DNA of 64,000 bases from Plasmodiophora brassicae (Eukaryota): NCBI GenBank assembly GCA_036867785.1, contig CP145427.1:434001-498000 (forward strand). Reading direction: 5' to 3'. The notes under the pieces are model-generated. The model made no database searches, was not told the origin of the DNA, and saw only the letters and a list, made by a program, of their open reading frames with translations. Both the position numbers and the translations under genes were made by a program. Shown one piece after another: positions 9,753 to 59,609 of the stretch; position 1 is the first letter of the stretch; each line of letters opens with the position of its first letter.

Positions 9753-10530
9753 TTAACAGCGGTTCCACGCGTAGAACCAGCCAGGAATCGAACGACGGCC
9801 ATGGACTGATCGGCCGTCGTGTGGCGGATCGGGATCGGCGACAGGTGTACCGCAGGCGCCGTCCACTGTAGAGTTCGGAATCAACATGATCAGGACTGCC
9901 AGCTCCCGAAACGTTTGGTAGACGCGAAAGTTGCCATTGCGACGGCGTTCATTGACCTGAACGTTGAATCTAGACCCAATAAACTTGGCGCGTATCATGC
10001 CCACTTCAAGTCTCTCCGGATAAATCAGGTAGACTTTGTCCTCGACGAGGTCGTCATGGTGCCGAAGGACGAGTACCGGAATGGAGTGTTTCGTCGCTGC
10101 TGATGCTGTCATCCGACGAAATGGGTGGAGCAACTTGTCCCGGTACGGAGGAAGAAGGCAACGGGTTGGGAACCAAATCCGAGAAGTCGACCATCGTCAT
10201 TTGGACCTTATCCATGGCCCCAAGCTAACCTGCACGCCTCTTAAGTCGTCGCAGCGGATCCCCGGAAAGAGTGTCTCGCCGGCCGTGTGGGCAGGACCTG
10301 CGCCTCCATGAGCTAGGCAGGGTATTGGACAGACTGGCGCGCGCGGCAAACGTCGTCGTCGTTGCCGTGCCCGACAAGAAGCAGGGAAATCCCGTTACTC
10401 GAAGGAAGCAACTGGAACGATACCGCAGTTTCGAATAGCTTCGCAATGTGGAGAAGAACACGATGTGGGATATTGAGTAGCCCGTGGACGCTCAGCTGCG
10501 GAAACGGATCATCGTAACTCGTGTCGACTG
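9753..10530 (-). pseudogene. Decayed, deletion-ridden paralog of the chymotrypsin-fold Cys-protease gene at 45963..48364
   Basis: Fragments in collinear order: LFETAVSFQLL..SLLLVG, TLFPGIRC..VSLGPWIR, STVDGACGTPV; stops and frameshifts between them. Confidence 0.65.
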
Positions 10531-10880
10531 ATGATGACCCAGTCCAAAACGTGGCCGATCTGCTCCCTGTGGATGCGCGTCCTGGTTCACCAGTCGACAC
10601 GAGTTACGATGATCCGTTTCCTCAGCTGAGCGTCCACGGGCTACTCAATATCCCAGATCGTGTTCTTCAGCACATTTCGAAGCTATTCGAAACCGCGGTA
10701 TCGTTCCAGTTGCTTCCGTCGAGTAACGGGATTTCCCTGCTTCTTGTCGGGCACGACAGCGACGACGACGTTTGCCGCCCACACGGCCGGCGATACACTC
10801 TTTCCGGGGATCCGTTGCGACGACTTAAGAGGCGTGCAGGTTAGCTTGGGGCCATGGATAAGAGCCAGTGACGATGGTCG
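10188..10880. repeat. Long inverted repeat (arms about 10188-10530 and 10591-10880, 60-bp loop)
   Basis: e.g. aaacggatcatcgtaactcgtgtcgactg versus cagtcgacacgagttacgatgatccgttt; arms align throughout with scattered mismatches and about 50 bp extra in the left arm. Confidence 0.92.
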
Positions 10881-14840: not shown

Positions 14841-15709
14841 TTAGTTGTGTCCCGACGTCGCTGCTGATATCGATATTGCTGTCAGGCGAAACATCATCCG
14901 ACGAAATCGGTGAAGCAACGTGTCCCGGTGCGGAGGAAGGAGGCCATGGGTGGGAACCAATCCGAGGCGTCGACCATGGTCATTCGACCTTATCCATGGA
15001 CCCAAGATAACCTGCACGTCTCCGATTAGGCCTTCACATGAGCGGATCCCCGGAATCAGTGTCTCGTCCGTGTGGACAGGACCTGCGCCTCCGACGTGAG
15101 TTGGACGACGTCGGCGTTGGCAAGGTCGCGCCCTCGCCCGGCTGTTCGGAACGTGACTATATGATGCACAACAGTAGCTCCTGCAATAACCACAGGGTAT
15201 TGGGTAGACTGGCGCGCGCGGCAAACGTCGTCGTCGCTGCCGTGCCCGACAAGAAGCAGGGAAATCCCGTTCCTCGAAGGAAGCAACTGGAACGATACCG
15301 CGGTTTTGAACAGCTTCGCAATGTGATCCAGAACACGATCTGGGATATCGAGTAGGCCGTGGACGCTCAGCTGAGGGAACGGATCATCGCAACTCGTGTC
15401 GCCCGATGAGCCAGGACGCGCATCGCCCTCGGACGCTTCTCTAGTGTGAGGCGGGGACCCGATCACGATGGCGTACGGGATCAGACCGCCGATGCTATCC
15501 ATGCAGACCGCCGCATCGATTTCATCATAGGACGTGTAACCGGCGAGCAGGTATGGCGGGTGCGAGCAGATGGTACGCGCGTTCGGCAACCAGACCTGGT
15601 GGACGAGCGCCGAATCCAACGCCGTGAAGCGGACGCGATAGTCCCGCCCGAACAGCGGCGCGCCAGCGAACTTTGCAACTTCCATGACCACCCTGTCGTT
15701 CACCGACAT
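14841..15709 (-). pseudogene. Second decayed paralog of the chymotrypsin-fold protease family (frameshifted, 3'-truncated)
   Basis: IPDRVLDHIAKLFKTAVSFQLL..SLLLVG..YPVVIAG, then in another frame LIPGIRSC..VILGPWIR..LGLVPTHGLL; about 14920-15410 is a nucleotide-level repeat of about 10140-10525. Confidence 0.7.
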
Positions 15710-16639
15710 TCTTCCGATTGGTAAGGCCGCGGTCCGCCGAGCCGTACCGGCCGCCGGGCGCGGCGCTCTGAAAACCGCCCGAAATCGCCCACCCTCAAGG
15801 TGGCCGGATCACTCGCCACCACCCCAGGCCGGGTCTGGGCCCTGAACCGACACCGTGCCCTGGTCAGTGCCCACGTGTCGGGCTCGGTCGTGCAACGAAA
15901 CGCTGGCGCGGCTCAAGGCGCCGCAGAGCTCCGGTGCGAAGGCCGGTCGACGTCGAGGGTCTGTACGAGGAGTCCAACCGAGACGCTGGGCAACAGGATG
16001 ACCCGGGGTAACGTCGGCGGCAATACGTCGGCGGCGACCAGCAGGTCACCTGATCCGAGTTGCCCTCCAGGTGGACGCTTATGTCCAGCAGCGACGCGAA
16101 GCGCTAGCCATGTGCAGCGGGTGGATTCTGGACTACGACCCCCATGTCGTTCGTCAGCCGGTGGCCGGGCGTCCACTGCACGCGGCCACATTGACTGGCA
16201 TGGTCTGCAGAGTTCGCGTTCCGTACCGGAGGAACCGGCGCCAGCCTGGACGAGCCACTCACTCGCCGGGTCCGAAAACGTGCCGGTTTCGGCGACCGTG
16301 GTTGGAGGAATGAAGCGTGATGTTCAGAATGAATTGACAGAGTGAGTAAATGACGCCATATGATCAATGACGTAATGATCCATAACAATGGGTTCAACAG
16401 GACAGGAAGAGTGCGGGAAGTGGCGGACCACTCGGACTCCGTGACACCGTGAAGGAGTCTGATCGCAGTCCGCACGGAGTTCGACGCCGGGTCTCCCGGA
16501 GTGCACTCGAATCCGAATGCCTACCTCGGCGGCAGCGTCTCAGGTGCGAATTGGGATCTGTCCCTTGTCCTCGTTTACCTCATTGCTGTCGGCGTTTCAG
16601 TTGCTCGCGGAATGCAGACTCATGAAGGGTGCCTGCCAT

Positions 16640-22607: not shown

Positions 22608-22650
22608 TAAGTGAGTTCGTTTGCTTGGGGCTCTTTGCGCAAGAAGCTTC

Positions 22651-22847
22651 TGTGCTAACGCCGCCGCTGCCCACTACGGGGGCGGTCGGTCGCAAGAGTC
22701 GGCGCCTGGTGATATAACGAACTGATGTATTTGGACAGGATCGTCACAGCAAGGGCCGCTGCGGGGTCGAGTACGGTCATGATCATGTGACCGGGTGGCA
22801 GCAGCATCTGAGCAGCATCATCTGAGTACTGGTACTCTGGATGAACA
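22651..22847 (-). repeat. 5' LTR
   Basis: Identical by eye to 17512..17708. Confidence 0.96.
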
Positions 22848-29300: not shown

Positions 29301-29998
29301 GCCACCAGGTCAACGGTGGCGAACTCCGACGGTCGTCGGCTGATCTCGTCGACGACGTCCTTGACGAACACTGCGTCGTCGTGGTGCAGGTCGTGCCCGC
29401 ACACATCGACGACCCGGGAAAGCTCATCAGCGGTCAGCAGCGACAACCGGGATTGAACCTGTCGCGACAGGTGCCGAAATGCAGAGGGGAACGCGCTCGA
29501 CCCGTTGCCGTTGCGAGACTTGGCGAATGTGGTGAACAACGAAACGAGCATGGGGGCAGAGAACGTGTCGATGTGCGGGACGATGTTCGGTTCGACGACG
29601 GTGAGGAGGGTATGGAACGAGGAACCGCGCAGAGCGACGTACGTCAGGTCGCTGATGCTGGTGATCAGGGCGGCTTGATGGGGGACGGGCATGGTGGCGA
29701 CCCGGGCAACGGTGTCGTCGGCGACTGCATCCAAGAAGGCCATCAGCGACAGGTCGCCGGCATGCGAATGGAAATGCGCGCGGCACGCCGACAGAATGGC
29801 GACGAGCGCGTCCGGCGTCGACGTGGCGAGTCGCGCGCGGGCCCGGTGGAGCCAGGCGCGGCGCTCGATCACGCTCGACAACCCCGGCAATGCGGAGACG
29901 AGGTCGTCGTCGACCTGGTAGGCGGCGCTGCACATGACGCCGACCTGCATGCCGGCGGGGACCAGGACGACGAGGAGGATGAGGAGGACGGCGGCCAT
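26369..29998 (-). CDS. Signal peptide + OPR/FAST-like helical repeats + degenerate RAP + ankyrin repeats + C-terminal TM, intronless
   Basis: MAAVLLILLVVLVPAG; helical repeats (..MSSEDLVRVAFAYASAG..); RFKYRCLMRHGWRVIAM; ankyrins GRTALHVA, GRTAVHVAA, GRTPLHYAA; TM VVPVAPVVYVVVAVGAALAILASCLIWY. Confidence 0.8.
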   Translation of the reverse strand: MAAVLLILLVVLVPAGMQVGVMCSAAYQVDDDLVSALPGLSSVIERRAWLHRARARLATSTPDALVAILSACRAHFHSHAGDLSLMAFLDAVADDTVARVATMPVPHQAALITSISDLTYVALRGSSFHTLLTVVEPNIVPHIDTFSAPMLVSLFTTFAKSRNGNGSSAFPSAFRHLSRQVQSRLSLLTADELSRVVDVCGHDLHHDDAVFVKDVVDEISRRPSEFATVDLVAVLERLATRSDVDPVDMFAASAYRLSRNVSSMSSEDLVRVAFAYASAGAGHPVMPLIARKATFDLSLVFPNIAAQTASGRSLNSLPVSALFKEIATEAIKRRRSIDSKLILRLLLAFRRTRFACDPALFDEVSNRALARWRPDELAQLAIAFSSAPMHIRYPMKRRIARAIVRRRDEIWNVEHVVHIVLATEYALSAFRTSILQAIAPALIERIPKMSASHLALIVPTYATHVHPTSNDVLRVVASYSGPSFDIIANVDDVVAALQVMTEEDVPATNLLETFTAAVIDKVADLNVHTIARILYVFALIDKPKAVSAIVVERLLPLFLNDTVLDHKLKETMTFLHLWKISLTNSDFAKIAVQCPSLLRIFARCAEVFTADADELPSSVPQRNLSTGLRSNYRCPWTGLLVPSAYVTCSANVVILSKSEAKYSARLGVPRAVHRFKYRCLMRHGWRVIAMDLQSLTALGDRQIQDMIDDVLTVPVDPEQELHDAIMRGDVAVVRQLYPLRFKFTSAAANPSWTPMHTLADSGSRNLPAMTCIMKDAINVQTWDGLTPLDIAVARSRQEAVETIRSSGGTSSDRSSKLTVTTPERMPESIAWMAAASSGDHGMFWHLLKKHRRIYPGRLNWEGDSVLHLVVQAYRLCRNVTADVAFLLSNGLPANLKNDKGRTALHVATLSGTLPGVLDLLMAHDVAINEADLKGRTAVHVAAIHGRHRFIARLFQCGADVNALDRDGRTPLHYAALNGRDRVIQELARHGGNVSALDQHGLTPYDIARDDVCKSALAALLEPIGEGAPMPTVSVPTGVPALTKASLLVASLALTAAVRPDLISRRSMPVPTKTSSFSWASLWRSTRIRRAMSMLAGAASTAAVSRYMAKAPSSRGRMAAGCKGSERTSTWAIVVPVAPVVYVVVAVGAALAILASCLIWYKLSDSCAHRYADVRDVIWWRYDDLRQFLRYRVTFPWEWRCHRTSGVCFG

Positions 29999-30277
29999 TC
30001 GTGCGCACTGTCGTAGAGCGAAGCGGTTCGCCGCCGCACTATTTTCGCGGACTGCGTCTGGGTGCAGCTCGCGCCCACCGCCGGCGGACCGCACTTTTCA
30101 GATGCGTCCGTACCGGGGGACGACCTACGGTGTACGACAATCCCTGGAAATGGAGCTGGCTCGCGTCGCCGGGCAATTGTCCAATTTATTACGAAGGAAG
30201 TGATTGGGAGAGTGTGTGCTCCCTCTGGCCGGTTGAGCCGTTGCTTACTTACCAGCTCAAGTTGCGAAGATGGCGAA

Positions 30278-33200
30278 TCAGTTGGTCACAGGTGCCTTAT
30301 CGTTCTTGTCAGTGGAATTAGCTTGCCATTGCTCGTCGGTGTTGACGATATTCGTGAACAGGTGACTGGATGTGAGTTCCGCAAGCCTTTCTTCGGGCAC
30401 CAAGAGAAGCAACATTCGAGCCTGCTTGCATTCGCTGTCTAGGACGCCGATCAGCGGATATACGACGAAGAGGTACTGCGCGACCACCGCAACGATGAAC
30501 CCAACCAGCAGTAGAATCTGCGTCAAGAGATAGTCGGGAAGGATGGCGGCGACGGCGTTGCCGAACAGCTTAAGGCTCCGAAGGCCTACAGGGTCCAGGA
30601 ACGAGTTTTCGAATTCCAGTAAGTTAACCAAGTCCGCTTTGGCGAGATTCGACATCACATCTGTTTCGTTCGCAAGTAGCCATACGCCGGTACCAGCCGC
30701 GCTCTCCACTTGAACGTCGGCGTTGGCCGCCGGTAGCGTATTCGACAGGACATTCGCCAGCCCTTTCGATTGCCGTGCGTATTCCACGGTAGCGTGATAC
30801 AATCCACTGGTCATGACCCCGTTCCGGAATTGTTCGCATGTGACCTGTGTAGGACTAGCACCTTCCTGGAAATTGATGCATCCGTTAGTGAGGAGAATGT
30901 CGAGTTCATCGCTGACAGATTCGGGCTGTGTACCACCATACACATTGATCATCCCAACTGTACCCATGTTCCCATTACTGTACAGCAGTTGTGACGCCGA
31001 TGACTCCAACTGCGATATTGAGTTCAAGATCAGCGACTTCGTGATCAGGTTCGCGGCCACGTCGTCGTCGATGCCTTTGACCTTGGCTCCAGCAGCGTAC
31101 ATTTGCAGATACAAGGCAATATTGCCTGTCCGTCGATGGTTCGTGGCGCTCAGGCTCATCCATGCCGGAATATTAGTCATGGAATCATGCATGTTTGCAA
31201 GTTGCATATTGGCAGCAATAAAGTATACCATAGCGACCAGGACAATCGTTGCGGCGCGCAACGTCACCCGCGTCCCTCTGTCCCGCAGGAAACGCAGAAA
31301 TTGGTCCAGCAGCGTCCGCACCTCAAGTCTAAGTTGAGACTTCGATTTCCCATGACGCTGATCTGAAGTGGAAACCGCGCCCGGCTGCTTCACATCCATC
31401 GTGTCTTCGCCAGCTGTCACTTTCGAAGCAGGTGTGGCCACTGTTTGGAGGGCGCCACCAGTTCCGTCATCATATGCATCATCTCGAAGTTGGGACGGCC
31501 TGGCAACGGTCGTTGGCGGATCCTCACAGCGTTGATCGTTGACATTTTCTTGGTCGTCATCGTCGTCTGGCGGTTTCACGGTCAAGTCACCGCCAACGTC
31601 CTGTGAACGGCGCCGCTTGGTCTTGGAGCGGTGGTATCCTTTGGTTGTGTTGATGGCCATTAGGACACTGCGAGCAGCGATCCCATGGGTCGTCTCGAGA
31701 CGATCCAGAATACTATCGCGGATAGCGGCCGTCGACTCCTCCGGGAGGTTCATCAGGATCTGCATCGTTTCACGTTTTGATTCTTCGATAGTCTTGACTT
31801 TTGGGTACAGAGCAAGAACAGAGAGCGCGATCAAAACCAGGCATGCAATGCTGACAATGATCGTCATGGATACTGCCCGATGAAAATATGGTCAATGGAC
31901 AGGCGGAATCATTTGCGAACAGATTGGCATCTACCTGTTGAGGATAAAAAGTTCGTCAGTTTGGCAAATACGGCGTTCCTGCTTGCAGTGATCGCTCCGG
32001 GCAGAGACGATGATGTCGATCCCAGCGCGTTTGCTATTAACATAAATACAAGTGGGTTGGTCGACCGGAACTGAGATAGGTCGCTTTGAGTCAATTGATC
32101 CGCTGCCGACGTATACATCGTTACGGCATCAAACAACCCCATCTGCGTGATCATTGTCGACGTCCCGTCGGGGTCGGCTGTGTCGTGCAGTAGCAATCGC
32201 ACTTTGACCGCTGGGGTCTCATAGAATGGAACCACACCCTCACCGAATGAACTTCGTGCTGTCGTATTTCGTCATGGCGTCAGCATAAATGCGTTAATTC
32301 GTGGATTCGTTGTCGTTACCTTGGTAGAGCGCAAGATCGCTGCCGTGTAGGGTGGCCGCGGCTCCTGACATGCGTTGCCGTAGCCACGCCTGGACAGAGG
32401 TATCATTCGGGATGAGCCCGTTATTCATAAGCATGAGGTTGAAAGCACCGAACGCAGCCGTTGTTAGGTAGGATCGCCGTTCTGCCGAGACAATGGCCGT
32501 CTGCATAAAGTTGTTGTAGGTGGTTATGGATTGGTTTTGGGCGGCGAACCATGCGATCGATGCCACGACAACAATGGCGATAACACCGAGGTACATGTTC
32601 CGGAAAGATCGTAGGCTGGGGTCCAATGCAGAATTGTTTCGCAGTAGGGCACGGCGTAACGCCCGTGCTTGGTTGACGCTCGAATTTGCCTCCGACACAG
32701 ATGACGCCGAAGGAGGGCCCCCGTTGGTGTTCCGCCCTCGACCATGACCGGATCCCGTATTTGCATTACCCGCATCTTCCTTCTCCGACGCGTTCACACG
32801 ATCGATACAGGTCGTATTCGTCACGTCCGACATATCCTGAGACGCAGTAAACTGAACCTTGCGACTGCTTTGGCCAGAGGATCGCCGTCGAGAGCGACCT
32901 CCACTTGTCTGTTCCGGTGCGATAACGGCCAACGACGTCAGGTCACGTTCCGAATCCGACACTTCGCTGGCGCTGTCGACTGGCGGCGCAATAGAGACCC
33001 TGGGCGCTGAAAACGTCACTGAGTGGCTCGGTTCGTCGAATGTGCTGACGATGATGGCATCGACGGTTTCAGTGTGCACCTGGAACAAAGTGACGGCCAC
33101 ATTGATCCGTCCGGGATCGTCCAACGATACGCGATGCGACATTGCTGCCTCATGGGCTACGCCTGGGTCACGAAGGAACTCCTCCCTGTTGTCATCGTAA

Positions 33201-35548
33201 TCCTGGATCAGGTCGGTGATCTTCAGAGAGTTGGATGCCAAATCGTCGACTCCGACTTGGAAAAGGCTGAACGCCGCGGCTGACATTCCAAACACCAACC
33301 CAGTACCGCTATCAGCAATCACGATACTGGACGATGGAGATGACGTCGGCACGATGGACGCAAACATGACGAATGTGATGCCATCGTGAGAGAACGGGCG
33401 CAGAAATATAGTTCCTTGGAAAAGCTCGCCCTTGGCGTTCTTGCAGAACGCGTTAATCGGGCGCATAAACAGATCGGACTCGCCTGAGTCCAAGTACCTG
33501 GTTGCAACCGTCGGAAAGACGGTTGACCACGGCGGCAGGAGAAACTGATGCAAGTCACGGCCGACAACCCCGTCGCCGAGCAACGTCACAGCGGGGTCGT
33601 TGACAGTGACAACAGAGCCCATAGAAAAGTTATTGCTGGTGTCATCGGTGATGGAAATTGTTACAGTGGCCACCTGCTCATCCATGAAGTCATGCTGTGC
33701 ACCACCCTCCTGACGACGCAGGTTGACCGCCCGTTCCGCTTTGATCGACATGCGGTCCGCGAGGTCGGTATTGTTGATAACGGTATGTAAGAACCCGGCG
33801 TACATGTGCAGGGCCTTGGGGGAGTTCGGCGATCGACGCACGAGCGTCCGATATGCGGCCGATGCCCGGTTGGTCAGGAACCCAATGGCCTGCGTCAATC
33901 GCAGAACCCTGTTCATGTCTGCCTTCTTGTCAATCTCGATCCAGAACTGCACCATCGCCTGGCAGCACTTCATGTCCATCCGGCGAGCCTCTTGCAGGCC
34001 CCGCTCCAAGTTGACGTACTCAAGCGCGGCACGGCCTTGTCCCATGGTCCACGATTCCATGCACTCTTTCAGCTTGCGTACCTGACGGAACAGATAGAAC
34101 TTCTGGTCCACCGACAGTTCAAGTTTGTCTGCACGAAGCAGCACCTTCCGGGCCTGCAACGTCGCGTTTCTCACGCTCAGCAGAAATACCGACTCGAAGA
34201 TGTGCCTACACGTAAACAGGTCATTGTCCTGCCGATCTGCGTGGCATGCAACAGACAGTTAGTGGGACGTACAGTGCGACTGATTTCGGGAACCTCTCAT
34301 GGGCTTGCTCATATTTGGCGGCAATAGAATCGAGTTCACTGTCTGTTGCATTGCGCCAATCTGCAGGGCGACAGCAGAGCTCAACTTCGTAGACATTCGA
34401 ACATTTGGCGATGACGAGGCGGTCGAGGTGGGACCGGCGGGCCTTGACGGCCAGGATTATCAGTGGTACAACGAGCAGGGGCCCGCCGAAGAACAAGGTC
34501 ATAACGCTGACGGTCCCCGGGAGGATGACCCGAAGAAACGTGCTGCATAAAACCGCCCAGAACACCACTGACTGCGACACCGCATGCAACATATTCGATT
34601 TCATGTTGTAGAACGGCTGATACATCACCTCGAGATATGCGAGAGTGAACGCAGAGGCAAGGGTGAGCAGGGCCCAGCAGATACGGACAGCATCGGTTTG
34701 CGCGATCGGGGTCCACCATAGGTATTGGCTGAGCACTGTCAGGATTGTCTTCACTGCGAATCGCAGTTGGAAGATACGCGAATGCGATCGAGCCGACGTT
34801 GCCGTACTTGTTGGGTCCGATTCAAACATGGTTAGTGCGATGACAGCGCCGACGATGGCGATTACAGGCGCCAGGGCGAGCATTAGGACCGTAATGAAGG
34901 TGGCCGCCCAGCTCGGTAGATCTTGGAACGCGAAGTACCCCGTGAGAATCCCCAAGACAGGCACGTACATGAAGGTGACCAGCGCGCCGGCAAGGCTGCG
35001 GAACACGACAGCGATCCACATATACCGGGTGCTGCCAGCAACGCACGCGTATCCGAGATATGTGCCGATTGCCAACAGTATCGTCAGCAGTCCTGCGGAC
35101 AGGTAGTTGCCGATCTCGTTGGCTTTATAACCGAGGACCACCGGAAGCACTGTGAAATACAGCGCAAAGTCGAACCATGACTGGATGGGCTGTTCCAGTC
35201 CAAAGTTAAACGCGTCTGCGGGCGGCACCATTAACGCCATCTGCATCGGTAATTAGTTGGGCACGACGCGCGCTATTGTTCGTTGCTAGGACTTACCATT
35301 TGAAGCGCTTCGATAACTTCAACGACGACGTCGAAGGCGGCGGAATGCGCCGACGACTTGGACATGATGTACAGCAGGGCAATAAATCCGGCTTGACACG
35401 AGTTGAACCATGCCACAACTCGTTCCGCCCAGGACGACTTCTGGGTCCCATCTTGGCCGAGACTGAAATCCAGGTCATCGGCGATGGCCGCCTCCGACCC
35501 GAACGACTGCGCCGACGAACCCGCCGACGACAGCGAACGGAGACCCAT
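30278..35548 (-). CDS. Large PAS-domain multi-pass membrane protein (TmcB/TmcC-like), multi-exon
   Basis: N-terminal TM bundle (34221..35246), TPR-like segment (NSPKALHMYAGFL), PAS-like VVTVNDPAVTLLG..VGRDLHQFLLPPW, Ser-rich linker, further TMs, C-terminal RMLLLLVP. Confidence 0.8.
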
Positions 35549-45515: not shown

Positions 45516-45962
45516 CCTCAGTAGCTGGTATTGTCGACCGCAGAGATGTCGGCGTCATGTTCCCTCGCGGGAGAACGCAAACAAACTTGCATCGATCCAC
45601 CATGCAGATGATCGCAAGGTACCAGGACAATGTTGTTCGGCTCAACGTCCTGAGCGGCGACCCACGTCGACTCGTTGACCAGGTCGAATCACGTCGCCTG
45701 GACGTGAAAAGCGCACTTAAGCCGCAACACGTATCTTCTGACCATCGTGCAACACTTTGGAATCTTCAATGACCACAGTCACAGAACTTAGCGGACCCGC
45801 GCGCCGACTGTAGACCGCTCCGAGTCGGACTCCGACGCACCATGGCGGAGATGCGCCCGAATTGAATTTTTGAGCCCGTCGAACTCGTTGCCCCAGCTTG
45901 CTCCGACTCGCTCCGGTCGGCCATAGCTGGAAAGCCGAGGCGTCGGTCTGTGCCTAGCGAGC

Positions 45963-48364
45963 ATGGCGGAATCGGGACCAGGCTCGGACGTGTCTTTCAG
46001 ACAACGATTTGATATGATCGCAAATCGTTGCGAGACCGCCGGCATCGTACGTTGCTTGTCTTGACGATCCTCAAGTGTGGTTACGAAATCTTACTCTTTA
46101 GATGGACGCTCCCGATGACGAAAGTGACGAGACCATGCGGTCGAATGCTATATTTGTTGACACAATGTTCACGCTCGCAAAAGATGTAATCAGCCTTCTC
46201 ATCGATCTGCTCGTGGAGTTTAGCTTTGATACTCCAAAGGATCAGACACTCTCGTTGGCTGGTTGGTACAGGGTTGGCTTTCTCCGCATTCTGTTGAAAC
46301 TCATATATCTGTTTGGACACAGGCGTGCTGCGCGAACTGCTAGCCACTGCAGTCACGTTTGATCGGGTGTTAATAATGAAATCGGGCGTACTGATAGAGG
46401 GTGCTGCTGCCTGGGATAGATTGAACCCAACGCGAAACGAGCGTAATAACATCATTACGTCTTGGGCGTTAGGCGCCAGACTTCATGTATGCCCAAATCG
46501 TCTCGAGATGACCATGAAGACGTCTTTAACATTTAGAGTGTAGCCGTTCGACGATGCGCTTCGTTTTATTGCTGAACCATTTCCGTGCCTCACGTTGCTG
46601 AAACACGCTCTGCTTCAGAACTCGCAAACGACGGACGTTCGTGATCGGGTGTTGGATGGCCTTGTAAAGATGATTTCCAGTCCTTTGTGTTGTCCTTTCC
46701 CCTTGTACGTGATGTTCCTGTCAACAGCTTTATAATGTCTGTGCACTTATACATTCAGCTGCAGGTCTGAACATGTGGAATCGTTTGCTGCATCCATTTT
46801 CTTGCTCGCCGCGTGCTTTTCCATAACTAATGTTCAGAAGCGTATTTATATTGACAGCATTATTAAGCCGGAAACGCTTGCAACCCTTTTCATCGGTGCT
46901 GATGATTTCCTCACCAAGCTACTTCGGCGTGCTGTTGGACCTTTCATTACCGACGACTTCCCCGAGTACCGCGATGTTGTCGACGCTGCGCGCTCTTCTA
47001 TTGAAAGTCGTCATTTTCTTAAGTTGGCGTCGAAACATGGCGCGTTGGCCAAGCACTATGTTGACCGAGGCTTAACTATCGCGCTCAGCATTGAGCTGGA
47101 ACCTTGGATGTGCGAGGCGTTACCCTTTGAAGCCGGCCTGAGTGGAGGTCTTCTGATTCCATTACCCCCGTACCTGCTCGAGCTGTTCGAGAAACCTGGC
47201 GTTTGCCGTCGCGCGCATGTTCTTGTCTGCGGTTTATTGCATATTGGTCTTGTAGCAGGACCTCCTGGAAAGCGTGGCCCCCTTCTCCCTGATCCTCGCG
47301 AAGGCTGTCGCATTGTTTCTGGAGTGCTGAGCGATGAGGACATTTACGCCGCATCAGAGGCATTTCCTACCGCTGTCTCGTTTTCGTTGCTGGCAACCGC
47401 TTTATCGGACTTACTGCTTGTCGACTTCGGGACCGCCAAAGCTCTCAATGTTGCTCTGACGAAGCCAATGCCGTTGCGTTTTGCTGGCCTGCACATACTA
47501 CCTGTTGCGTTCTGTAGCAGGCTAGCGGCTGGCAAGTTTCCCCTACCTGCGGAAGCGAGGCATCGGGATGACTGGGCACACAACCTAACCCCAGGACAGA
47601 TGATGTGTTCTCCTGATGTGTCCGGTACCGTGCTGTGCACAGGCGTTCTTGTAGAACTTCCCGACAAAGAGGTGGTGATGGTCGGCGCGACCCATGGGTT
47701 CTTCAAGCACCAGGATCTCCTGGACCTTGGTTGCAAGTGCTTGCCACTCCAGCTATCATCGATGCATCAGAACCGACTCAACGGCACCGAGGTCTACCAC
47801 CGAGACAGGCAGGAGTTCATCGGCAACCTGCTTCGCATTGTTGACGATATTACCTGCGTCAAATCCTCAGAGGATTGCTATGAATTGAATAAGTTTGACT
47901 GGTGCTTTATCCGGGTCGACAAAGCCGTGGAAGAGAGGTTTTCGAACGCAATCCATGGCATTCAACTACGTCGCCTTGGATCGATCGAGCACCTGAAGTA
48001 CCCGCCGGCGCGCAACGTCAATTTCGAAACGCCGTACCGGCTTTACGTTGACAAAGAGTTTTTACCAAGCGTCGGGTTTCGGAAGATCACCTTCTTGTTC
48101 CGGCAGGTTTTCAGGTCCAAGCGAGGCAAAGGAGGTATCCTCAAGAGGGCCGTATTTCAGATGGACGACAACGACGGCGCGGACCATGCCGATAGCGACG
48201 GTGCGTGCAACTCGCCCATCTTCGACATTCAAGGGACTGTCTTTGGCAAGGTCCGGGGCATCATGGACAAGCCCCGTATGTTCGCCATCACGCCCATGCC
48301 GCCAGAAATGGAGCGCGCGCGTATCGTTGTACCGCCGGTGTTCGCAGGTCAGCACGTCAGCTAA
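45963..48364 (+). CDS. Spliced gene for a protein with a C-terminal chymotrypsin-fold domain and putative His/Asp/Cys triad
   Basis: Four short upstream exons (first intron 46047-46101 in phase) lead into ORF 46775..48364; VGATHGFF (His 47693), FDWCFIRV (Asp 47897), DGACNSPIFD..GTVFG (Cys 48206). Confidence 0.7.
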
Positions 48365-49108
48365 AACAGCTAGCTCCTGGTAGCTCAGTGTGGGGCTTCG
48401 CCCCCTTCGCGCATTCATAGCAATACACACCTGACCTCTATACTCTATGTCGTGAATCCGTTTCGTGCACGTAGGTATGTTACATCATCCACTGGACCGA
48501 ATCTAGATGCGTTCGAGGAGTGTTAATGCGTGCATCGTGAAGATATCGGGTAGCGCTACTGTTTGCACCCCAAGCATGTATCTTCAACGCAAACGTGTAC
48601 AGAGTTTAATGGTGGCCATGGTGTCCGTGATGGCCGCCGTGATGCATGTGGTGCCCATGATGTCCGCCGTGCTGCGTTGACAACCAGCGCACCGATCAGA
48701 CATCAGCAGGGCGCAAACCGCTCACAGAAACACCTACATGACCGTGATGGCCCATCGCCGTCACCGACCCGATCATCGCCACGACGACCAGGGCAATCAG
48801 CGCCCCGGCCCGCTTCACAATCGACATGCTGCGCGCGGTCCCCGATTCTTATGAACGCAGGCGCCCCGAGATCCAGGGTACGATATTTAGAATGAACCAC
48901 CCGACGCGCAACGTCGTCGCACGCACTGTGCAGCTCGTGACTCAACGCAGCGACGTGTCGCCCCCCGTCCAGTGGCGCAGTTCCGTGTTGCGGCGTGACG
49001 GCGTGAACAGCACGTCGTGGGGGCGCGGTGGGGGCGTTACAGCGAGCGCGTGTCGATCGACTAAAAATAACCGGGGCGGTCGGGCGCGCCTTGGATGGTG
49101 ATTGGCGG

Positions 49109-55115: not shown

Positions 55116-57428
55116 CTATTCGCCGCATGAGCAATGGCCATCTTGGAAAAAGTGGTACCGCTGCAGGTCACGAAGATGAATATCACGCCGGAGCACCGCC
55201 GACGCACGCTTCACGATGGCATGGCGGTCGGCGGCCAAGACCGTGTTCTTCGTCAACCGGACCACATCACCGACAGGCACAGTCATATGAGCATACGCGA
55301 CTGCAATGACCTCGCTCTGCTTTGCTCCGAACTGATCGGCGGCATCGTGCGGCCAGTCTTCGCGTAGGCGTTCTGCTAGATCACCGTGACACTCCTGCAA
55401 TGCCAGATCCGATCGAAGACACGTATCGTCGCAGACGAAATGCAGGGACCGATCCGACAGCTGTACCGATGTTCGCCAAGCATGACGGCCAGCGTCCGGG
55501 TTGGACAACGGTTGGGCAACGCTTTCCGAAGTCGCTAGATCGATGGGCTTGCAGTCGGGATCGCTGAGGTTGCTTGCTTGCCACGTGGAATTGGGCCGGA
55601 TGTTCCATTTGTCGGCGAATTCCGCTACGATCACGCTGGCCCGAGCCAGGTTGCCAGCGTTGGCGCATGCTGCCAACAAGGCGTGCAGCGACGCCTCCGT
55701 TGGTACCAGGCCGGCCTCCTTGATCTGGTCGTACACGTCGACAGCACGCGGCAGCATTCCATGCAGGGCATACGCTGAAATCATGGCGTTGAACACAGGT
55801 ACAGGCGGCACAGACGCCAGACAGCGACCATTGAATAGTTGCTGAGCGGAACGAACGGATCCGCATTCGGCGTACGCCACGGTCAGAGCGGCGATGACCG
55901 CGTCGACGTTCATAGACGGGCGCGTCCGACAGTACTGATGCAGCGTTTCGATTCGGGACAAATTCGAACAGCGACCGTACGCGAACACAAACGCGCTGAC
56001 CACGTACGCATTGCCAAAGTAGTTATTCCTGGTAGCCTCCTCATGAACCGCGTCGACCGAACAGACGTCAGCACAGCGACCGAACGCCGTCGCGAATGCC
56101 CGCACCAGAAAATCGCTTCCCAGGGCGGAGTTGTTGTTCTCCAATACGAACCGGTGCAGGGCCCGCACGGCCTCCAGGTCGCTCAGTCGCCCAAATGACG
56201 ACACGAACGAGCAGAATGCGGTGCTGTCTTTCCAGTAATGGTGATCTTGAGCGATCGCATGCAGACTGTCCAACGCAGAGGCACGCGAAGGGCAACGCCC
56301 ATACGCAGACGCTAGCGAGCTGACGATCCGGGGCCGGTCCAGTAAGGCGTTGTCGCGCGCATACTCGTGCAAGAAGTCCAAGGCGGATACACACGAGTAC
56401 CTGCTCGAGGTCGTGATCAGCGTGATCAGCACAGCGTCGAGGACGTTGCAGTCGGGGCGACCCGCCATGGCCTTAAACAGGTCCAACGCCTGCTCGACGC
56501 GGCCGGCTCGGGCGAGACCGATGACGACTAACGACAGCATGTGGACGGTCGGGCGCATCCCGTCCGCATCATCCAGACGCCCTAATGTCTGCAGCGCGTA
56601 CTCGAACCGATTCTGGGCGACCAGCGCCCTGATCAGGTTGCAGTACGTTTGCGGACACCACTGATGCTGGAAGCGCAGGCCATGGTCCAGCAGGCGTTCA
56701 GCCGTGTCCGCGCACCCCGATTCAGCACAGCAGGCCGCGAAGATGGACGACAGCCGCCGCGTCAGCTCCACGTTGTTGTCCAGGGCGTCGCCGACGAGGA
56801 ACAACGCCGAGCCGGGTCGGCCGGCCAGGCGACAGATGTGCGCAACGCCAAAGATGACGTTGTTGGAACGCGGCCCATGTGCCGGATAGCGTTGGAGGAC
56901 TTCGTCGGCCAGCGGCGGGCTGACAGATTGGCATGCGCCAAGGAACGTGCAGAACAGCGTATCGCAGACGCGCACGCCCGCAGCAACGGCCGCGTCCAAC
57001 ACGAGAGGAGCTTTCGATGGGGATAGGCGCCGGCAGGTCGACATCATGGTCTGGTAGAACCGGACGATCTCCGTGTCGCGATACAGCGCCGCCTGCACGG
57101 TTTCGAAGATCGCCCAGGCGCGGTCCGGGTCGCCCTCCTGACGCAGCGCCGATATGGCCAGCGCGATCGTCGGGCGCTCCCGGAACGCGTCGAACACGGG
57201 CGCCGCCGCGGGCGATCGCGCCGCCGTCGGGTCGCCATGTCGCGCCGGCCATACCCGGTGCCACAGGCGCAGCGCGTCGCTCGGCGCACCCGTACGCGTG
57301 TCAGCGGCCGCCGTGCACAGGCCAGCGCGTCGGCAACATGCGGCTGACACCCGGCGACGCATCCGAACGCCCCACAGCAGCCCAAAATGCCGAATGGGCG
57401 AGGCGAGCCCTCTCATCGCCCCCGCCAT
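55116..57428 (-). CDS. PPR protein with degenerate DYW-like C-terminal domain; Arg-rich N-terminus suggests organelle targeting
   Basis: PPR motifs (TYCNLIRALV, VFNAMISAYALHG, SLHALLAACANAG); terminus QSEVIAVAYA..VRLTKNTVLAADRH..K..S..RDIHLRD..RYHFFQDGHCSCGE*; start codon uncertain (57362/57416/57428). Confidence 0.85.
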   Translation of the reverse strand: MAGAMRGLASPIRHFGLLWGVRMRRRVSAACCRRAGLCTAAADTRTGAPSDALRLWHRVWPARHGDPTAARSPAAAPVFDAFRERPTIALAISALRQEGDPDRAWAIFETVQAALYRDTEIVRFYQTMMSTCRRLSPSKAPLVLDAAVAAGVRVCDTLFCTFLGACQSVSPPLADEVLQRYPAHGPRSNNVIFGVAHICRLAGRPGSALFLVGDALDNNVELTRRLSSIFAACCAESGCADTAERLLDHGLRFQHQWCPQTYCNLIRALVAQNRFEYALQTLGRLDDADGMRPTVHMLSLVVIGLARAGRVEQALDLFKAMAGRPDCNVLDAVLITLITTSSRYSCVSALDFLHEYARDNALLDRPRIVSSLASAYGRCPSRASALDSLHAIAQDHHYWKDSTAFCSFVSSFGRLSDLEAVRALHRFVLENNNSALGSDFLVRAFATAFGRCADVCSVDAVHEEATRNNYFGNAYVVSAFVFAYGRCSNLSRIETLHQYCRTRPSMNVDAVIAALTVAYAECGSVRSAQQLFNGRCLASVPPVPVFNAMISAYALHGMLPRAVDVYDQIKEAGLVPTEASLHALLAACANAGNLARASVIVAEFADKWNIRPNSTWQASNLSDPDCKPIDLATSESVAQPLSNPDAGRHAWRTSVQLSDRSLHFVCDDTCLRSDLALQECHGDLAERLREDWPHDAADQFGAKQSEVIAVAYAHMTVPVGDVVRLTKNTVLAADRHAIVKRASAVLRRDIHLRDLQRYHFFQDGHCSCGE

Positions 57429-57800
57429 CCCGTGCGCGACAGTCGTGAGCTGCATGCACACTGTGCGCCCCGTCGGGGACGCGTCCCAAAATAGTGCACG
57501 ACACACGAAGGTGCCGCATTGTATTTTTCGTATCGCGTTCCATCCGGTAGACTTGCGCCTGTTAACGACAGGTACACAACGCCTACGGTACGTTTGATCG
57601 CCGGTCGTTCGTACAGTGCGCGCTGGGTTGCCCCGAGGACCAATGCGGAGGCGGCCGCCGTCGACCGCGCTGACGCTCAACCTGGTCGGCCTTGCCGACG
57701 ACCATGCGAAGGCGCCGGCGCCTGACAGTGCCGCCCTGCGTCGACGTACATGATACCCATCGCGCGCCGGCTGCCGTGAACTGAACGTTGACGTGCAGGG

Positions 57801-59609
57801 ATGCGCGACTACGAGGCCGTGATCGACGCGCAACGCCAGCAGATGGCCCGCCTCGCTCTGCGGTTGCATAACGTCGAGTGCCAGCTGAACCAGGCGCCTC
57901 CGGCGTCGTCGGCGCCAGACGTCGCGGTACCGTCGACGAGCCCATCTCCAGAGCCGATCGACACGACGGCGTCGCCGGTGCCGTCATCCCGTCAGAGGAT
58001 GGCCCAGGAGCTACAGGAGCAGAAGACCCTGAACCGGAACCTGGAACGGCGCCTGCAGACGCTGACAGACGCGCTGATGGCGGCCAGGCCGGCGCATACC
58101 AGCCGGGAACGATCCACGCGAAGCCCGACCGGGCGACGATGGCTGTCGGGGCCGGGCAGGCAGGCGGGCGGCGACTCGGCCACTGCTCGAGAGCAGGTGG
58201 GGCCGACCGAGGTGGGCGATGACGACTGCGTCCACCAACGTATCCTATAGATGACTGGGGCTATCATGCCTGCCGACCTCTGCACCCTGATCGTGTCGAT
58301 GTCATCCCGGCCGGACGTGCGCCACGTGCTTCGCGAGGTATGCCGCATCCTGCCACACCTGGTGTGCTGCTCGAAGGCGATCGTGTACGTCATCGACCAG
58401 AACACGTCGCGACTGACGTCGCTGGCGTCGAACTTCCTCCGGCCGGACGCCGTCCTGCAGGTGGCCATCGGGCGGGGCATCACAGGGCACGCGGCGACGG
58501 CAACGGAGTCCATGCGCGTCATCAACGCCGCCCGCGACAAACTGTACGACGTCGACGCCGACGGCCACTGCCGGGCCATGATCTGCACGCCCATTCGCGA
58601 TCCGTACGCGCAGCGCACGATCGGCGTGATCCAGCTAGCCGACAAGGTGCTCCGCGTGTGAAACGTCGCGCAGTGTGTTCGTAACCGCCGTGTGTGTGTG
58701 TGTCCGTGCAGCTGTCCAGTACGGCGTTTTTCACGCGGGCGGATCAGGCCCTGGTGGAGATCACGGCGGCGTTCGTCGCGCTGCGCCTGTGCAACGATGC
58801 GCTGGCGCAGCGCGCACTGACCGACCGCAACAAGCTGAAGGGCATGTTCGCTACCGCCGAGTCGCTCATGTCCCTGAACGACATGGGCGGCGTCGTCGAG
58901 CAGCTGGCCGCCAAGATCAACGACTACTGCCGGGCGGACTACACGGTCATCATGGCCGTCGATAGGGACCAGCAGGAGATGAGCGCCGTCGGGCAGTGCG
59001 TCCGCGAGCACATGACGCTGCGCATCCCGGCCGCGTACACCGTCGATCGGCAGGACGGCAGCGATCCCGGTAGGCGCGTTCCAATGGTTGGACGGCCACC
59101 AGGTCTAATGCGTTGCCGTGGGCCAGACGCGCAGAGGGTATCGTTATGCAGGGCAACGTCGATGGCGGCAGCGGCAATCGGCACGAATCAGCGCTTTGTG
59201 GTCGACGACGCGTCATCGGATGCGCGATTCAAACCAACGTTCGACGAGTACCTGGCCGACGTGAAGACGTTCGGCCCGACGCTGTCCCTGCTGATTCACC
59301 CGGTCGTCCATGCCGTCCGCGAGCGCGTCGTCGGGCTGATCGTCGTCGGGTGCACACGAAGTCACGCGTTCTCGACCGATACGGTATAACCGATGGCTAC
59401 GCGGGTGGTGCTCGACAATGTTAACGATATCGGTGCAGAACGATGGCGTTGTGGACTACCACGAGCTCGTTTGCCACACCGTCATGCGATTACAGGCGTC
59501 CCGGTCGAAGACGTACGCCCTAAGGACAAACCTGGGCGTCCTCGACGACCTGGTTGAGCGCATCACGTTTCAACAGGGCGCGCACCCCAGCACAACGTTT
59601 GATCAATGA
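57801..59609 (+). CDS. Coiled-coil + tandem GAF domain protein, multi-exon
   Basis: IGRGITGHAATATESMRVINA..MICTPIRD..IGVIQLADK..FTRADQAL; second GAF VVDDASSDARFKPTFD..SLLIHPV..VVGLI. Confidence 0.8.

What the first reader, a model, noticed from the sequence alone, without database searches (positions are those of the whole stretch)
45963..48364. Cellular chymotrypsin-fold protease with a Cys nucleophile (3C/NIa-like), part of a multi-copy family
Seen: motifs VGATHGFF, FDWCFIRV and DSDGACNSPIFD..GTVFG occur in the order and spacing of a chymotrypsin-fold triad, but Cys sits where GDSGxP has Ser. The decayed paralog at about 9840-9870 reads STVDGACGTPV, so the Cys is a family trait and not a one-off. 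Known: clan PA Cys proteases (picornaviral 3C, potyviral NIa with TKDGQCGSP) are typically viral. Inference: an intron-containing eukaryotic gene family of 3C-like proteases fused to an unknown N-terminal region, undergoing birth-and-death in repeat-rich DNA (one intact and two decayed loci in 64 kb). It could be a conflict, effector or cell-death protease.
Basis: partly seen in the sequence, partly recalled or inferred. Interest (0 to 1): 0.78.

Follow-up and report, generated by a model that had tools for sequence, protein, structure and literature searches.

The report
Clubroot-pathogen trypsin-like protease with cysteine
A transcribed, spliced gene of the clubroot pathogen Plasmodiophora brassicae probably encodes an intracellular trypsin-fold protease. 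It has a cysteine where such cellular enzymes normally have serine, and it belongs to a small family found so far only in this organism.

Summary
Window 45963-48364(+) is a real five-exon gene, identical to Plasmodiophora brassicae PBRA_008544 (722 aa). Spliced contigs from three runs carry all four GT..AG introns.

There are three full-length paralogs, all from P. brassicae. The window also holds two broken, diverged copies, one reading DGACGTPVAD.

Cys671, in G-x-C-x-S-P-x-F-D-x-x-G-x-V-x-G, and Asp568 are invariant in 4 of 4 paralogs. His524 fits trypsin-like spacing better but is missing in two. Only His535 is invariant.

Evidence for the fold is indirect:
- The ESM Atlas model of this protein matches bacterial trypsin-like peptidases (TM 0.75 over 261 residues) and plant NAL1.
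- A profile-profile match to prokaryotic NAL1-like proteases is weak (P 0.035; 1 of 157 shuffles reached it).
- Both of my AlphaFold2 runs failed (pLDDT 33-36).
- Pfam, NCBIfam and PDB sequence searches found nothing.

No kinship to viral 3C/NIa proteases was detected. The nearest relatives are cellular Trypsin_2/NAL1/Ssy5-type enzymes.

Best reading (about 0.5): an intracellular regulatory endoprotease of clan PA that uses Cys as nucleophile. This would be a new variant of a known kind, and activity is untested.

The parts
45829..48447 (+). Transcript as seen in assembled contigs. The 5' end lies at or before 45829. The 3' end is at 48447, followed by a poly-A tail.
   Evidence: the X2 contig spans 45829-47197 with four joints, and another X2 contig ends at 48447 with an 8-A loose end.
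45963..46046 (+). CDS exon 1 (Met1 onward)
46102..46261 (+). CDS exon 2. Intron 1 is 46047-46101 (GT..AG).
46323..46486 (+). CDS exon 3. Intron 2 is 46262-46322 (GT..AG, read with the cut +1).
46544..46704 (+). CDS exon 4. Intron 3 is 46487-46543 (GT..AG).
46765..48364 (+). CDS exon 5, including the stop codon. Intron 4 is 46705-46764 (GT..AG). It holds the whole protease-like region.
47315..47518 (+). Residues 374-441, starting near the conserved 'AFPTAVSFSLL' strand. It may be a small alpha/beta module ahead of the protease domain, or part of that domain. Confidence is low.
   Evidence: AF2 run 2 gives helix-strand-strand-helix-strand here at pLDDT 45-56. VIA matches are KH-like and alpha-lytic-prodomain-like at Z 4-5.7, which is within noise. 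The Atlas structural alignment to trypsin-like peptidases starts at 374-384.
47603..48328 (+). Trypsin-like (clan PA-like) domain core, residues about 470-711
47693..47695 (+). Present in 3 of 4 paralogs and Tyr in P0010. It may instead lie in the 'GxGxxh' strand.
47765..47767 (+). His524 (SSMHQNRL). It aligns with the invariant TNxH His of NAL1-like proteases. Spacing is His524-Asp568-Cys671 = 44/103. Present in 2 of 4 paralogs (Gln in P0008, Arg in P0010).
47798..47800 (+). His535 (VYHR), invariant in 4 of 4 paralogs. It aligns with the 'YHP' His that 115 of 120 NAL1-like proteins keep.
47897..47899 (+). Asp568 (FDWCFIRV), invariant in 4 of 4. It aligns with the invariant Asp of 'VDCAFV' in NAL1-like proteases.
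48206..48208 (+). Cys671 (codon TGC) in G-A-C-N-S-P-I-F-D-I-Q-G-T-V-F-G, the proposed nucleophile. Invariant in 4 of 4.
14892..15715 (-). Broken, diverged paralog fragment B. It covers family positions about 268-529 in two reading frames. No Cys block was detected downstream.
9756..10603 (-). Broken, diverged paralog fragment A, with in-frame stops and frame changes. It includes 'DGACGTPVAD' at 9834-9863 and lies just upstream of an RNase HII gene.
10518..10841 (+). Inverted duplicate of part of fragment A. The arms 10188-10880 match themselves in reverse at 77.6% over 750 columns.

Best explanation
PBRA_008544 is an expressed intracellular protein of Plasmodiophora brassicae. Its C-terminal third (about residues 470-711, possibly from about 375) adopts a trypsin/chymotrypsin (clan PA) double-barrel fold in which the nucleophile is Cys671 instead of Ser.

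The proposed mechanism is that of the fold. Cys671 sits in the 'GxCxSP' nucleophile elbow, whose backbone forms the oxyanion hole. Asp568 sits in the 'FD-x-x-F-I' strand. A general-base His, either His524 or His500, sits across the cleft between the barrels.

The layout is a long N-terminal non-catalytic region followed by a C-terminal PA domain, with no signal peptide. This resembles the cellular NAL1 and Ssy5/S64 group, which are site-specific regulatory endoproteases. The most likely role is therefore limited, regulated cleavage of intracellular targets, possibly including itself, rather than bulk digestion.

Shown: the gene, its splicing, the family, the motif conservation, and the predicted-structure similarity.

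Inferred: the fold itself, catalytic competence, the identity of the His, and the regulatory role.
For: 1. The gene is real and transcribed. Four GT..AG joints appear in contigs of 3 of 3 RNA-like runs and 0 of 1 DNA-like run, and there is a poly-A end. The CDS equals the annotated P0006.

2. The strongest conservation falls on the expected catalytic blocks (A1). Between P0006 and the 24%-identical P0010, the invariant residues are:
- G669, C671, S673, P674, F676, D677, G680, V682, G684
- N565, F567, D568, I572
- Y534, H535

3. ESM Atlas feature search of the 253-aa C-terminus. The top hits score 0.96 and are Trypsin, Trypsin_2 and Nal1_C clusters. 10 of the ten best hits with a family share a family or clan with the best of them. 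The tool notes that a third of shuffled proteins also reach ten of ten, and about 1 in 100 shuffled proteins reach a first-hit score of 0.95.

4. The Atlas holds its own model of the full protein (pTM 0.50, pLDDT 0.54). Its structure search gives:
- TM 0.75 (261 aligned, query 384-711) to a bacterial trypsin-like peptidase cluster
- TM 0.69 (275 aligned, 374-711) to a second such cluster
- TM 0.56 to a plant NAL1 cluster (321 aligned, 276-717)
- TM 0.56-0.58 to Ascomycota clusters spanning 102-719

5. hhalign of the family against 120 prokaryotic NAL1-like proteins gives one local hit of 80 columns, score 24.5, P 0.035.
- It pairs SSMH-QNRLNGTEVYH with TNKH-VAIEAGQKLYH. The spacing is identical and H, G, Y, H match.
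- It pairs FDWCFIRV with VDCAFVEL.
- 1 of 157 column-shuffled queries reached that score.

6. Triad spacing is 44/103 with His524. For comparison it is 48/92 in bacterial NAL1-like P0012, 57/94 in rice NAL1 (H234, D291, S385; passages of PMC12012508), and 45/93 in chymotrypsin (recalled).

7. None of the four paralogs has a hydrophobic N-terminal segment. The maximum 12-residue Kyte-Doolittle mean in the first 40 residues is 0.5-0.9.
Against: - No sequence search reaches significance outside the family. Pfam, NCBIfam, PADLOC and PHROGs give nothing relevant at E<=10.
- PDB sequence and profile searches give only irrelevant or no hits.
- An HMM of the NAL1-like set scores the four proteins below many of 2000 shuffled controls.
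- hhalign against E. coli DegP/DegQ/DegS/YdgD gives P 0.33-0.52.
- The NAL1 hhalign hit covers only the His-Asp stretch. The Cys block did not align with GDSGS, even when the C-terminal part was searched alone.
- Both AlphaFold2 runs failed, with mean pLDDT 32.9 and 35.6, so I never saw the three residues side by side.
- Foldseek on the poor model gives no hit at E<=0.001. Nal1 tops the list at E 0.30, but TM is only about 0.1.
- VIA-align gives only noise-level Z. Sobemovirus proteases score Z 4.0 and 3.5 over residues 124-354.
- The two Atlas searches are language-model predictions and count as one source.
- No candidate His at the canonical position is conserved in all four paralogs.
Confidence: 0.5

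Rival explanations
1. Pseudo-protease. The domain has the PA fold but is catalytically dead. It would serve as a binding or scaffolding module, with the conserved Cys block kept for structure or ligand binding.
For: No canonical His is conserved in all paralogs. His500 is Tyr in P0010. His524 is Gln in P0008 and Arg in P0010. Dead PA-fold homologues are common in eukaryotes (recalled general knowledge).
Against: Pseudo-proteases usually lose the nucleophile. Here Cys, the flanking G-x-C-x-S-P elbow and the Asp are the best-conserved residues across 24-41% identical paralogs. The window's own protein has all three candidate His residues.
Confidence: 0.2
2. Not a PA fold at all. It would be a lineage-specific domain of unknown fold whose short motifs mimic the trypsin pattern by chance, with the language-model predictions led astray by those motifs.
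For: All HMM and PDB sequence searches are blank. AF2 gave no confident model. The hhalign match is only P 0.035.
Against: TM 0.75 over 261 aligned residues to trypsin-like peptidase models is far more than a motif match. Three motif blocks occur in the right order with trypsin-like spacing. The shuffle control gave 1 of 157.
Confidence: 0.2
3. Domesticated viral protease. The domain would descend from a 3C/NIa-type cysteine protease of an RNA virus captured by the plasmodiophorid genome.
For: As far as I recall from MEROPS, Cys in the PA nucleophile position is otherwise known only from RNA-virus families.
Against: No Pfam viral peptidase family matches at E<=10. There is no relative in IMG/VR: 30 pattern matches and 0 confirmed. 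All Atlas neighbours are cellular Trypsin, Trypsin_2, NAL1 and S64 clusters. The gene has four spliceosomal introns in its N-terminal part and a long non-viral N-terminal region shared by three paralogs. No other viral genes flank it.
Confidence: 0.05
4. Host-delivered effector protease of the clubroot pathogen that cleaves plant targets.
For: The family is lineage-restricted and shows birth-and-death turnover, with broken copies in repeat-rich DNA. The organism is an intracellular plant parasite (for the organism; lifestyle from abstracts listed).
Against: No signal-peptide-like N-terminus in any of the 4 paralogs. None of the four locus tags, nor accession CEP01602, appears in the paper library. 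Supplementary effector tables were not searched.
Confidence: 0.1

Closest known systems
NAL1 (NARROW LEAF 1) of plants and prokaryotic NAL1-like proteins (Pfam NAL1_N PF25608 + Nal1_C PF25819)
   Same: - It is a cellular, intracellular PA-fold protease with a non-catalytic N-terminal part.
- There is predicted-structure similarity: TM 0.56 to a plant NAL1 cluster, with Nal1_C-bearing clusters among the feature and structure hits.
- There is a weak profile match over the His-Asp stretch, sharing 'G-x-x-(V/L)-Y-H' and '(F/V)-D-C-(C/A)-F'.
- His-Asp-nucleophile spacing is similar.
   Different: - The nucleophile is Cys, not Ser.
- The Pfam models do not match at E<=10.
- An HMM of 120 NAL1-like proteins sees nothing.
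- The N-terminal 370 residues are unrelated by sequence.
- NAL1's hexameric cage and ATP-binding domain (PMC12012508, passages) were not examined here.
Ssy5 / Peptidase S64 and fungal SltB-type signalling endoproteases
   Same: - Size is about 700 aa, with a large N-terminal region and a C-terminal chymotrypsin-like domain. This is recalled for Ssy5. SltB papers appeared only as a search listing.
- An Ascomycota cluster, 15% of whose members carry Peptidase_S64, is among the feature hits at 0.89. Ascomycota clusters of 478-546 aa align structurally over residues 102-719.
   Different: - These enzymes use a Ser nucleophile.
- There is no Pfam PF08192 match.
- Autoprocessing and transcription-factor cleavage are unproven for this protein.
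Viral 3C / 3C-like / NIa cysteine proteases (MEROPS clan PA, families C3, C4 and others)
   Same: Cys is the nucleophile in a chymotrypsin-type nucleophile elbow. G-x-C-G-S-P in paralog P0010 resembles the NIa motif.
   Different: - No detectable sequence relationship.
- This is a cellular spliced gene.
- It has a much longer Asp-to-Cys segment (91-103 residues) and a 470-residue N-terminal extension.
Trypsin_2 (PF13365) / HtrA-type bacterial serine proteases
   Same: - Best predicted-structure matches: TM 0.75 and 0.69, with the aligned part labelled Trypsin_2 below the naming bar.
- The motif logic is the same: G-x-G strand, T-x-x-H, D-h-A-h-h, and G-x-S/C-G-x-P...G-x-h-x-G.
   Different: - hhalign against E. 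coli DegP/DegQ/DegS/YdgD is not significant (P 0.33-0.52).
- There is no PDZ domain.
- The nucleophile is Cys.

Membership tests
Clan PA (chymotrypsin/trypsin fold) | Two six-stranded beta-barrels with the active site in the cleft between them | tested here: inconclusive
   AF2 failed twice, with pLDDT 32.9 and 35.6. Foldseek and VIA on that model gave only noise-level rows. The ESM Atlas's own model (pLDDT 0.54) matches trypsin-like peptidase models at TM 0.75 and 0.69. This is supportive, but it compares one prediction with another.
Clan PA (chymotrypsin/trypsin fold) | Catalytic residues in the order His, Asp, nucleophile | tested here: inconclusive
   Asp568 and Cys671 are invariant in 4 of 4 and in the right order. 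The candidate His residues differ: His500 in 3 of 4, His524 in 2 of 4, His535 in 4 of 4. Which one is catalytic is unresolved.
Clan PA (chymotrypsin/trypsin fold) | Nucleophile elbow G-x-S/C-G-x-P followed by a G-x-h-x-G hairpin | tested here: met
   G-x-C-(N/G)-S-P-x-F-D-x-x-G-x-V-x-G is present in 4 of 4 paralogs.
Viral 3C/NIa cysteine peptidases (Pfam Peptidase_C3, C4 and relatives) | Match to the family profile | tested here: not met
   hmmscan against Pfam-A at E<=10 returned no such family for P0001, P0006, P0011, P0008 or P0010.
Viral 3C/NIa cysteine peptidases (Pfam Peptidase_C3, C4 and relatives) | Encoded within a viral polyprotein or viral genome context | tested here: not met
   It is a spliced nuclear gene between cellular genes. 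No relative was found in IMG/VR.
NAL1 family (Pfam Nal1_C PF25819, with NAL1_N PF25608) | Match to the Pfam profiles | tested here: not met
   No hit at E<=10. My own HMM of 120 members gave no signal above shuffles.
NAL1 family (Pfam Nal1_C PF25819, with NAL1_N PF25608) | Profile-profile similarity over the protease domain | tested here: inconclusive
   hhalign P 0.035 over 80 columns, limited to the His-Asp stretch. 1 of 157 shuffles reached the score. The C-terminal half did not align.
NAL1 family (Pfam Nal1_C PF25819, with NAL1_N PF25608) | Ser nucleophile (rice S385) with H234 and D291 | tested here: not met
   Cys occupies the nucleophile position in 4 of 4 paralogs. The NAL1 triad is taken from passages of PMC12012508.
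NAL1 family (Pfam Nal1_C PF25819, with NAL1_N PF25608) | Hexameric cage required for activity | not tested
   No oligomer prediction was run.
Peptidase S64 (Ssy5) | Match to PF08192, and autoprocessing between the pro-domain and the catalytic domain | tested here: not met
   The profile match is not met. Autoprocessing cannot be tested with these tools. Only a 0.89 feature-score lead points to a cluster with 15% S64 members.

The most novel reading that the evidence does not exclude
This would be the first cellular (non-viral) family of clan PA proteases that uses cysteine as the catalytic nucleophile. It would be an intracellular, NAL1/Ssy5-style signalling endoprotease lineage that switched Ser to Cys. 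It has expanded and decayed within the clubroot pathogen and is so far undetectable in any other organism.
Probability: 0.4. Interest if true: 0.7.

Novelty: new variant of a known kind. Interest (0 to 1): 0.55.

Why it matters
As far as I recall from MEROPS, cysteine-nucleophile members of the chymotrypsin clan are catalogued only from RNA viruses. Two searches of the paper library turned up only virus papers and no description of a cellular one. I read passages of only two of those papers.

A cellular family would show that the Ser-to-Cys switch also happened outside viruses. It would also provide a natural system for studying nucleophile exchange in this fold.

For clubroot biology, it assigns a testable biochemical function to four 'hypothetical' proteins of an unculturable crop pathogen. 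A Cys-dependent, lineage-specific protease could also be probed selectively with cysteine-reactive chemistry.

The practical caveat is that the fold assignment rests on predicted models and weak profile similarity.

Tried and rejected
- AlphaFold2 on the 253-aa C-terminus with 4 paralogs: pLDDT 32.9. On residues 355-722: pLDDT 35.6. Neither is usable.
- Foldseek/PDB on the second model: no hit at E<=0.001. Nine of the listed rows are Nal1 chains, but TM is at most 0.13, so I do not count them.
- VIA-align wide: best Z 5.7, for KH-like folds over residues 20-87. Sobemovirus proteases reach Z 4.0 and 3.5. All are within the tool's stated noise.
- Pfam, NCBIfam, PADLOC and PHROGs: nothing relevant.
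- PDB sequence and profile searches: only CO dehydrogenase and other chance rows, or none.
- phmmer against 1.84 billion representatives: 3 hits, all from the family.
- Word-indexed searches: only the family.
- The search for related loci with the domain alignment: viral 30 pattern matches and 0 confirmed, metagenome 159 and 0, prokaryote genomes 66 and 0.
- hhalign against E. coli HtrA/YdgD: not significant.
- Greedy extension of the NAL1 hhalign hit, and separate N- and C-terminal sub-searches: no further support.
- NAL1-like HMM against the family: below shuffles.
- Sequencing-run search: no RNA holder is listed on record. The runs I laid are labelled 'RNA?' by guess. Their spliced contigs are what I use.
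- Earlier notes of this scan: nothing on this genome or sequence. Five notes mention Plasmodiophora only as a comparison organism.
- No whole genome is held for the window. Family size therefore rests on protein databases, and dN/dS between paralogs could not be computed.
- The source label 'FPL domain-containing protein' for one database copy was not reproduced by Pfam.
Full report
**What is at the coordinates**

The plus strand carries a 542-codon open frame at 46736-48364. It holds VGATHGFF, FDWCFIRV and DSDGACNSPIFD..GTVFG in that order. Four short upstream frames continue the same protein.

The only close database relatives are from Plasmodiophora brassicae. An exact cluster look-up shows that the window's product is CEP01602.1 / PBRA_008544, 722 aa (P0006). 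The window is therefore nuclear DNA of the clubroot pathogen.

Neighbouring genes are ordinary cellular genes and a retrotransposon:
- RNase HII
- a Ty3/gypsy element
- an ankyrin protein
- a RabGAP
- a NIPA transporter
- a PPR-DYW protein
- CDC20

**Gene model and expression**

I laid four runs on 45800-48500. Contigs of X1, X2 and X5 each skip the same four GT..AG introns. These runs are labelled 'RNA?' by guess and come from three studies. The introns are 46047-46101, 46262-46322, 46487-46543 and 46705-46764. The DNA-like run X15 is collinear with the genome. One X2 contig ends at 48447 in a run of A.

Joining the five exons gives 2169 nt, which translates exactly to P0006. The five-exon model is confirmed, and the gene is transcribed and polyadenylated.

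A database model of the closest paralog (P0002, 696 aa) lacks 17 residues that include the GATH motif. The other model of that gene (P0011, 713 aa) has them. In the window's own gene, the contigs run straight through this segment without a joint.

**The family**

An exhaustive phmmer scan of 1.84 billion representatives found 3 proteins at E<=0.001, all from this family. Two word-indexed searches found only the same proteins.

The full-length members and their identity to P0006:

| Protein | Locus tag | Length | Identity to P0006 | Note |
|---|---|---|---|---|
| P0006 | PBRA_008544 | 722 aa | - | the window's gene |
| P0011 | PBRA_009108 | 713 aa | 79% | same 746-kb contig |
| P0008 | PBRA_007570 | 716 aa | 41% | |
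| P0010 | PBRA_003511 | 670 aa | 24% | different, Cys/His-rich N-terminus; only the C-terminal 300 residues align well |

Scans of IMG/VR, JGI metagenomes and 185,579 prokaryote genomes with the domain's most conserved peptides confirmed no relative. None of the four locus tags, nor accession CEP01602, occurs in the paper library.

**Decayed copies in the window**

There is no DNA-level repeat of the gene. Two loci nevertheless encode recognisable, broken relatives.

Locus B, 14892-15715(-):
- It aligns to P0008 residues 387-451 and 471-529 in two different frames.
- E is 0.004 against the whole window and 1.4e-4 against the locus alone.
- The match includes 'GRRLGLVPTHGLLPP' against 'GHRLMVGATHGFFRP'.
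- It also aligns to P0006 residues 324-413, with 'PPYLL' and 'FKTAVSFQLLPS..LLLVGHG'.

Locus A, 9756-10603(-):
- It is 75-92% identical to B in DNA and is partly duplicated in inverted orientation at 10518-10841.
- It has in-frame stops and frame changes.

Single profile hits are marginal (E 0.02-0.8 among 1461 ORFs). The shared strand, the collinear order and the copy-to-copy identity make chance unlikely. The diverged copy keeps Cys at the nucleophile position.

**Is it a chymotrypsin-fold domain?**

Direct sequence evidence is absent:
- Pfam, NCBIfam, PADLOC and PHROGs gave nothing relevant at E<=10.
- PDB sequence and profile searches gave only chance rows or none.

My two AlphaFold2 runs used a four-sequence alignment and failed, with pLDDT 32.9 and 35.6. 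Searches with the second model are not interpretable:
- Foldseek's best row is Nal1 at E 0.30 and TM 0.11.
- VIA-align's best Z is 5.7, for an unrelated small alpha/beta fold. Sobemovirus proteases score Z 4.0 and 3.5.

The positive evidence comes from three places.

- Motif logic and conservation. The most conserved columns of the family are G669, C671, S673, P674, F676, D677, G680, V682 and G684. Next come N565, F567, D568 and I572, then Y534 and H535. This is the pattern expected of a nucleophile elbow with its following hairpin, and of the Asp strand.
- The ESM Atlas.
  - For the 253-residue C-terminus, the top feature hits (0.96) are Trypsin, Trypsin_2 and Nal1_C clusters, and all ten best family-bearing hits belong to one clan.
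  - The Atlas also holds its own model of the full protein (pTM 0.50, pLDDT 0.54).
  - That model aligns to bacterial trypsin-like peptidase models at TM 0.75 (261 residues, query 384-711) and 0.69 (275 residues).
  - It aligns to a plant NAL1 cluster at TM 0.56, and to Ascomycota clusters of unknown function at 0.56-0.58 over residues 102-719.
  - These are predictions compared with predictions.
- An independent test of the NAL1 lead.
  - I found a bacterial Nal1_C protein (1 of 401 Pseudomonadota genomes) and collected 120 relatives. All 120 carry PF25819, and 119 also carry PF25608.
  - I then ran hhalign against the family.
  - The single local hit has 80 columns, score 24.5 and P 0.035.
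  - It pairs 'MVGATHGFF' with 'MGTLGAFA'.
  - It pairs 'SSMH-QNRLNGTEVYH' with 'TNKH-VAIEAGQKLYH'.
  - It pairs 'SEDCY' with 'DEDWY'.
  - It pairs 'FDWCFIRV' with 'VDCAFVEV'.
  - In the NAL1-like set these template columns are nearly invariant: H153 120/120, H164 115/120, D201 120/120, C202 112/120.
  - Only 1 of 157 column-shuffled queries reached the real score. One shuffle raised an hhalign error.

Results against this reading:
- An HMM of the 120 proteins does not see the family above shuffles.
- The Cys block never aligned with GDSGS.
- E. coli HtrA-type proteases gave P 0.33-0.52.

I put the PA fold at roughly three in four.

**Which histidine?**

In the NAL1 alignment, GATHGFF corresponds to the 'GTLGAF' strand, not to the His strand.

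His524 aligns with the catalytic TNxH His. It gives a spacing of 44/103, against these comparisons:
- 48/92 in the bacterial NAL1-like protein P0012
- 57/94 in rice NAL1
- 45/93 in chymotrypsin (recalled)

But His524 is Gln in P0008 and Arg in P0010.

His535 is invariant and matches the conserved 'YHP' His of NAL1-like proteins. I take that residue to be non-catalytic there, but this is an assumption.

The window's protein has all three His residues. P0008 and P0010 may be inactive or may use another base. This remains open.

**How it most likely works**

No paralog has a signal-peptide-like N-terminus. About 370-470 N-terminal residues of unknown, probably helical, nature precede the domain. 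The nearest structural neighbours are NAL1 and S64/Ssy5-type enzymes.

According to the NAL1 paper passages and my recollection of Ssy5, those enzymes are intracellular, site-specific regulators that cleave transcription regulators. Ssy5 also processes itself.

My best reading (0.5) is an intracellular regulatory endoprotease with a Cys671 / Asp568 / His (524 or 500) triad.

The rivals are:
- a dead pseudo-protease (0.2)
- a non-PA fold with mimicking motifs (0.2)
- a secreted effector role (0.1, not exclusive of the fold)
- a captured viral 3C/NIa protease (0.05)

**Comparison and novelty**

It works like a clan PA protease. It passes none of the family-level membership tests for 3C/NIa, Nal1_C, S64 or Trypsin_2, so I do not file it in any of them.

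To my recollection of MEROPS, the Cys nucleophile in this fold is catalogued only for RNA viruses. Two literature searches returned only virus papers, and I read passages of two of them. Neither states this explicitly.

If the fold and activity hold, this is a new, lineage-restricted cellular family with a Ser-to-Cys switch, which would be a new variant of a known kind. Supplementary tables of P. brassicae effector and expression papers were not examined. They could list these genes.

Noticed in passing
window 17718-22673 (-): An uninterrupted 1651-codon frame of a Ty3/gypsy-type retrotransposon. It carries RT, RNase H, integrase zinc-binding and core domains and a C-terminal chromodomain, so it may be a recently active element.
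   Followed up: partly
window 55116-57983 (-): A 955-codon frame encoding PPR repeats with a C-terminal DYW-type deaminase domain (E 1.5e-16). This is the plant-type RNA-editing factor architecture, found here in a rhizarian parasite.
   Followed up: no
window 10188-10880: A near-palindromic repeat whose arms are 77.6% alike over 750 columns. It is built from the broken paralog fragment, and a related copy lies at 14894-15424.
   Followed up: partly
window 8980-9948 (-): An RNase HII gene (Pfam E 5.9e-41). Its upstream frame overlaps, in another frame, the ORF that carries the DGACGTPVAD remnant.
   Followed up: no
P0002 versus P0011 (paralog PBRA_009108, not in the window): Two public gene models of the closest paralog differ by exactly 17 residues (VVMVGATHALFKPQELQ). 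One model removes the GATH motif. In the window's gene the equivalent stretch is retained in all three RNA-like runs.
   Followed up: partly
P0010 residues 1-70 (paralog PBRA_003511, not in the window): The most divergent paralog replaces the family's N-terminus with a Cys/His-rich stretch. It gives faint Sina/TRAF zinc-finger hits (E 3-5), and one source labels it a C2H2-type domain.
   Followed up: no
window 47165-47619: Summed contig depth rises two- to four-fold here in all four runs, and the contigs break at 47197/47218 and 47414/47417. This may reflect words shared with the 79%-identical paralog.
   Followed up: no
window 26369-30097 (-) and 32294-34258 (-): A 1242-codon ankyrin-repeat frame and a frame with a TmcB-type TPR domain (E 2.1e-34) lie between the retrotransposon and the gene studied.
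   Followed up: no
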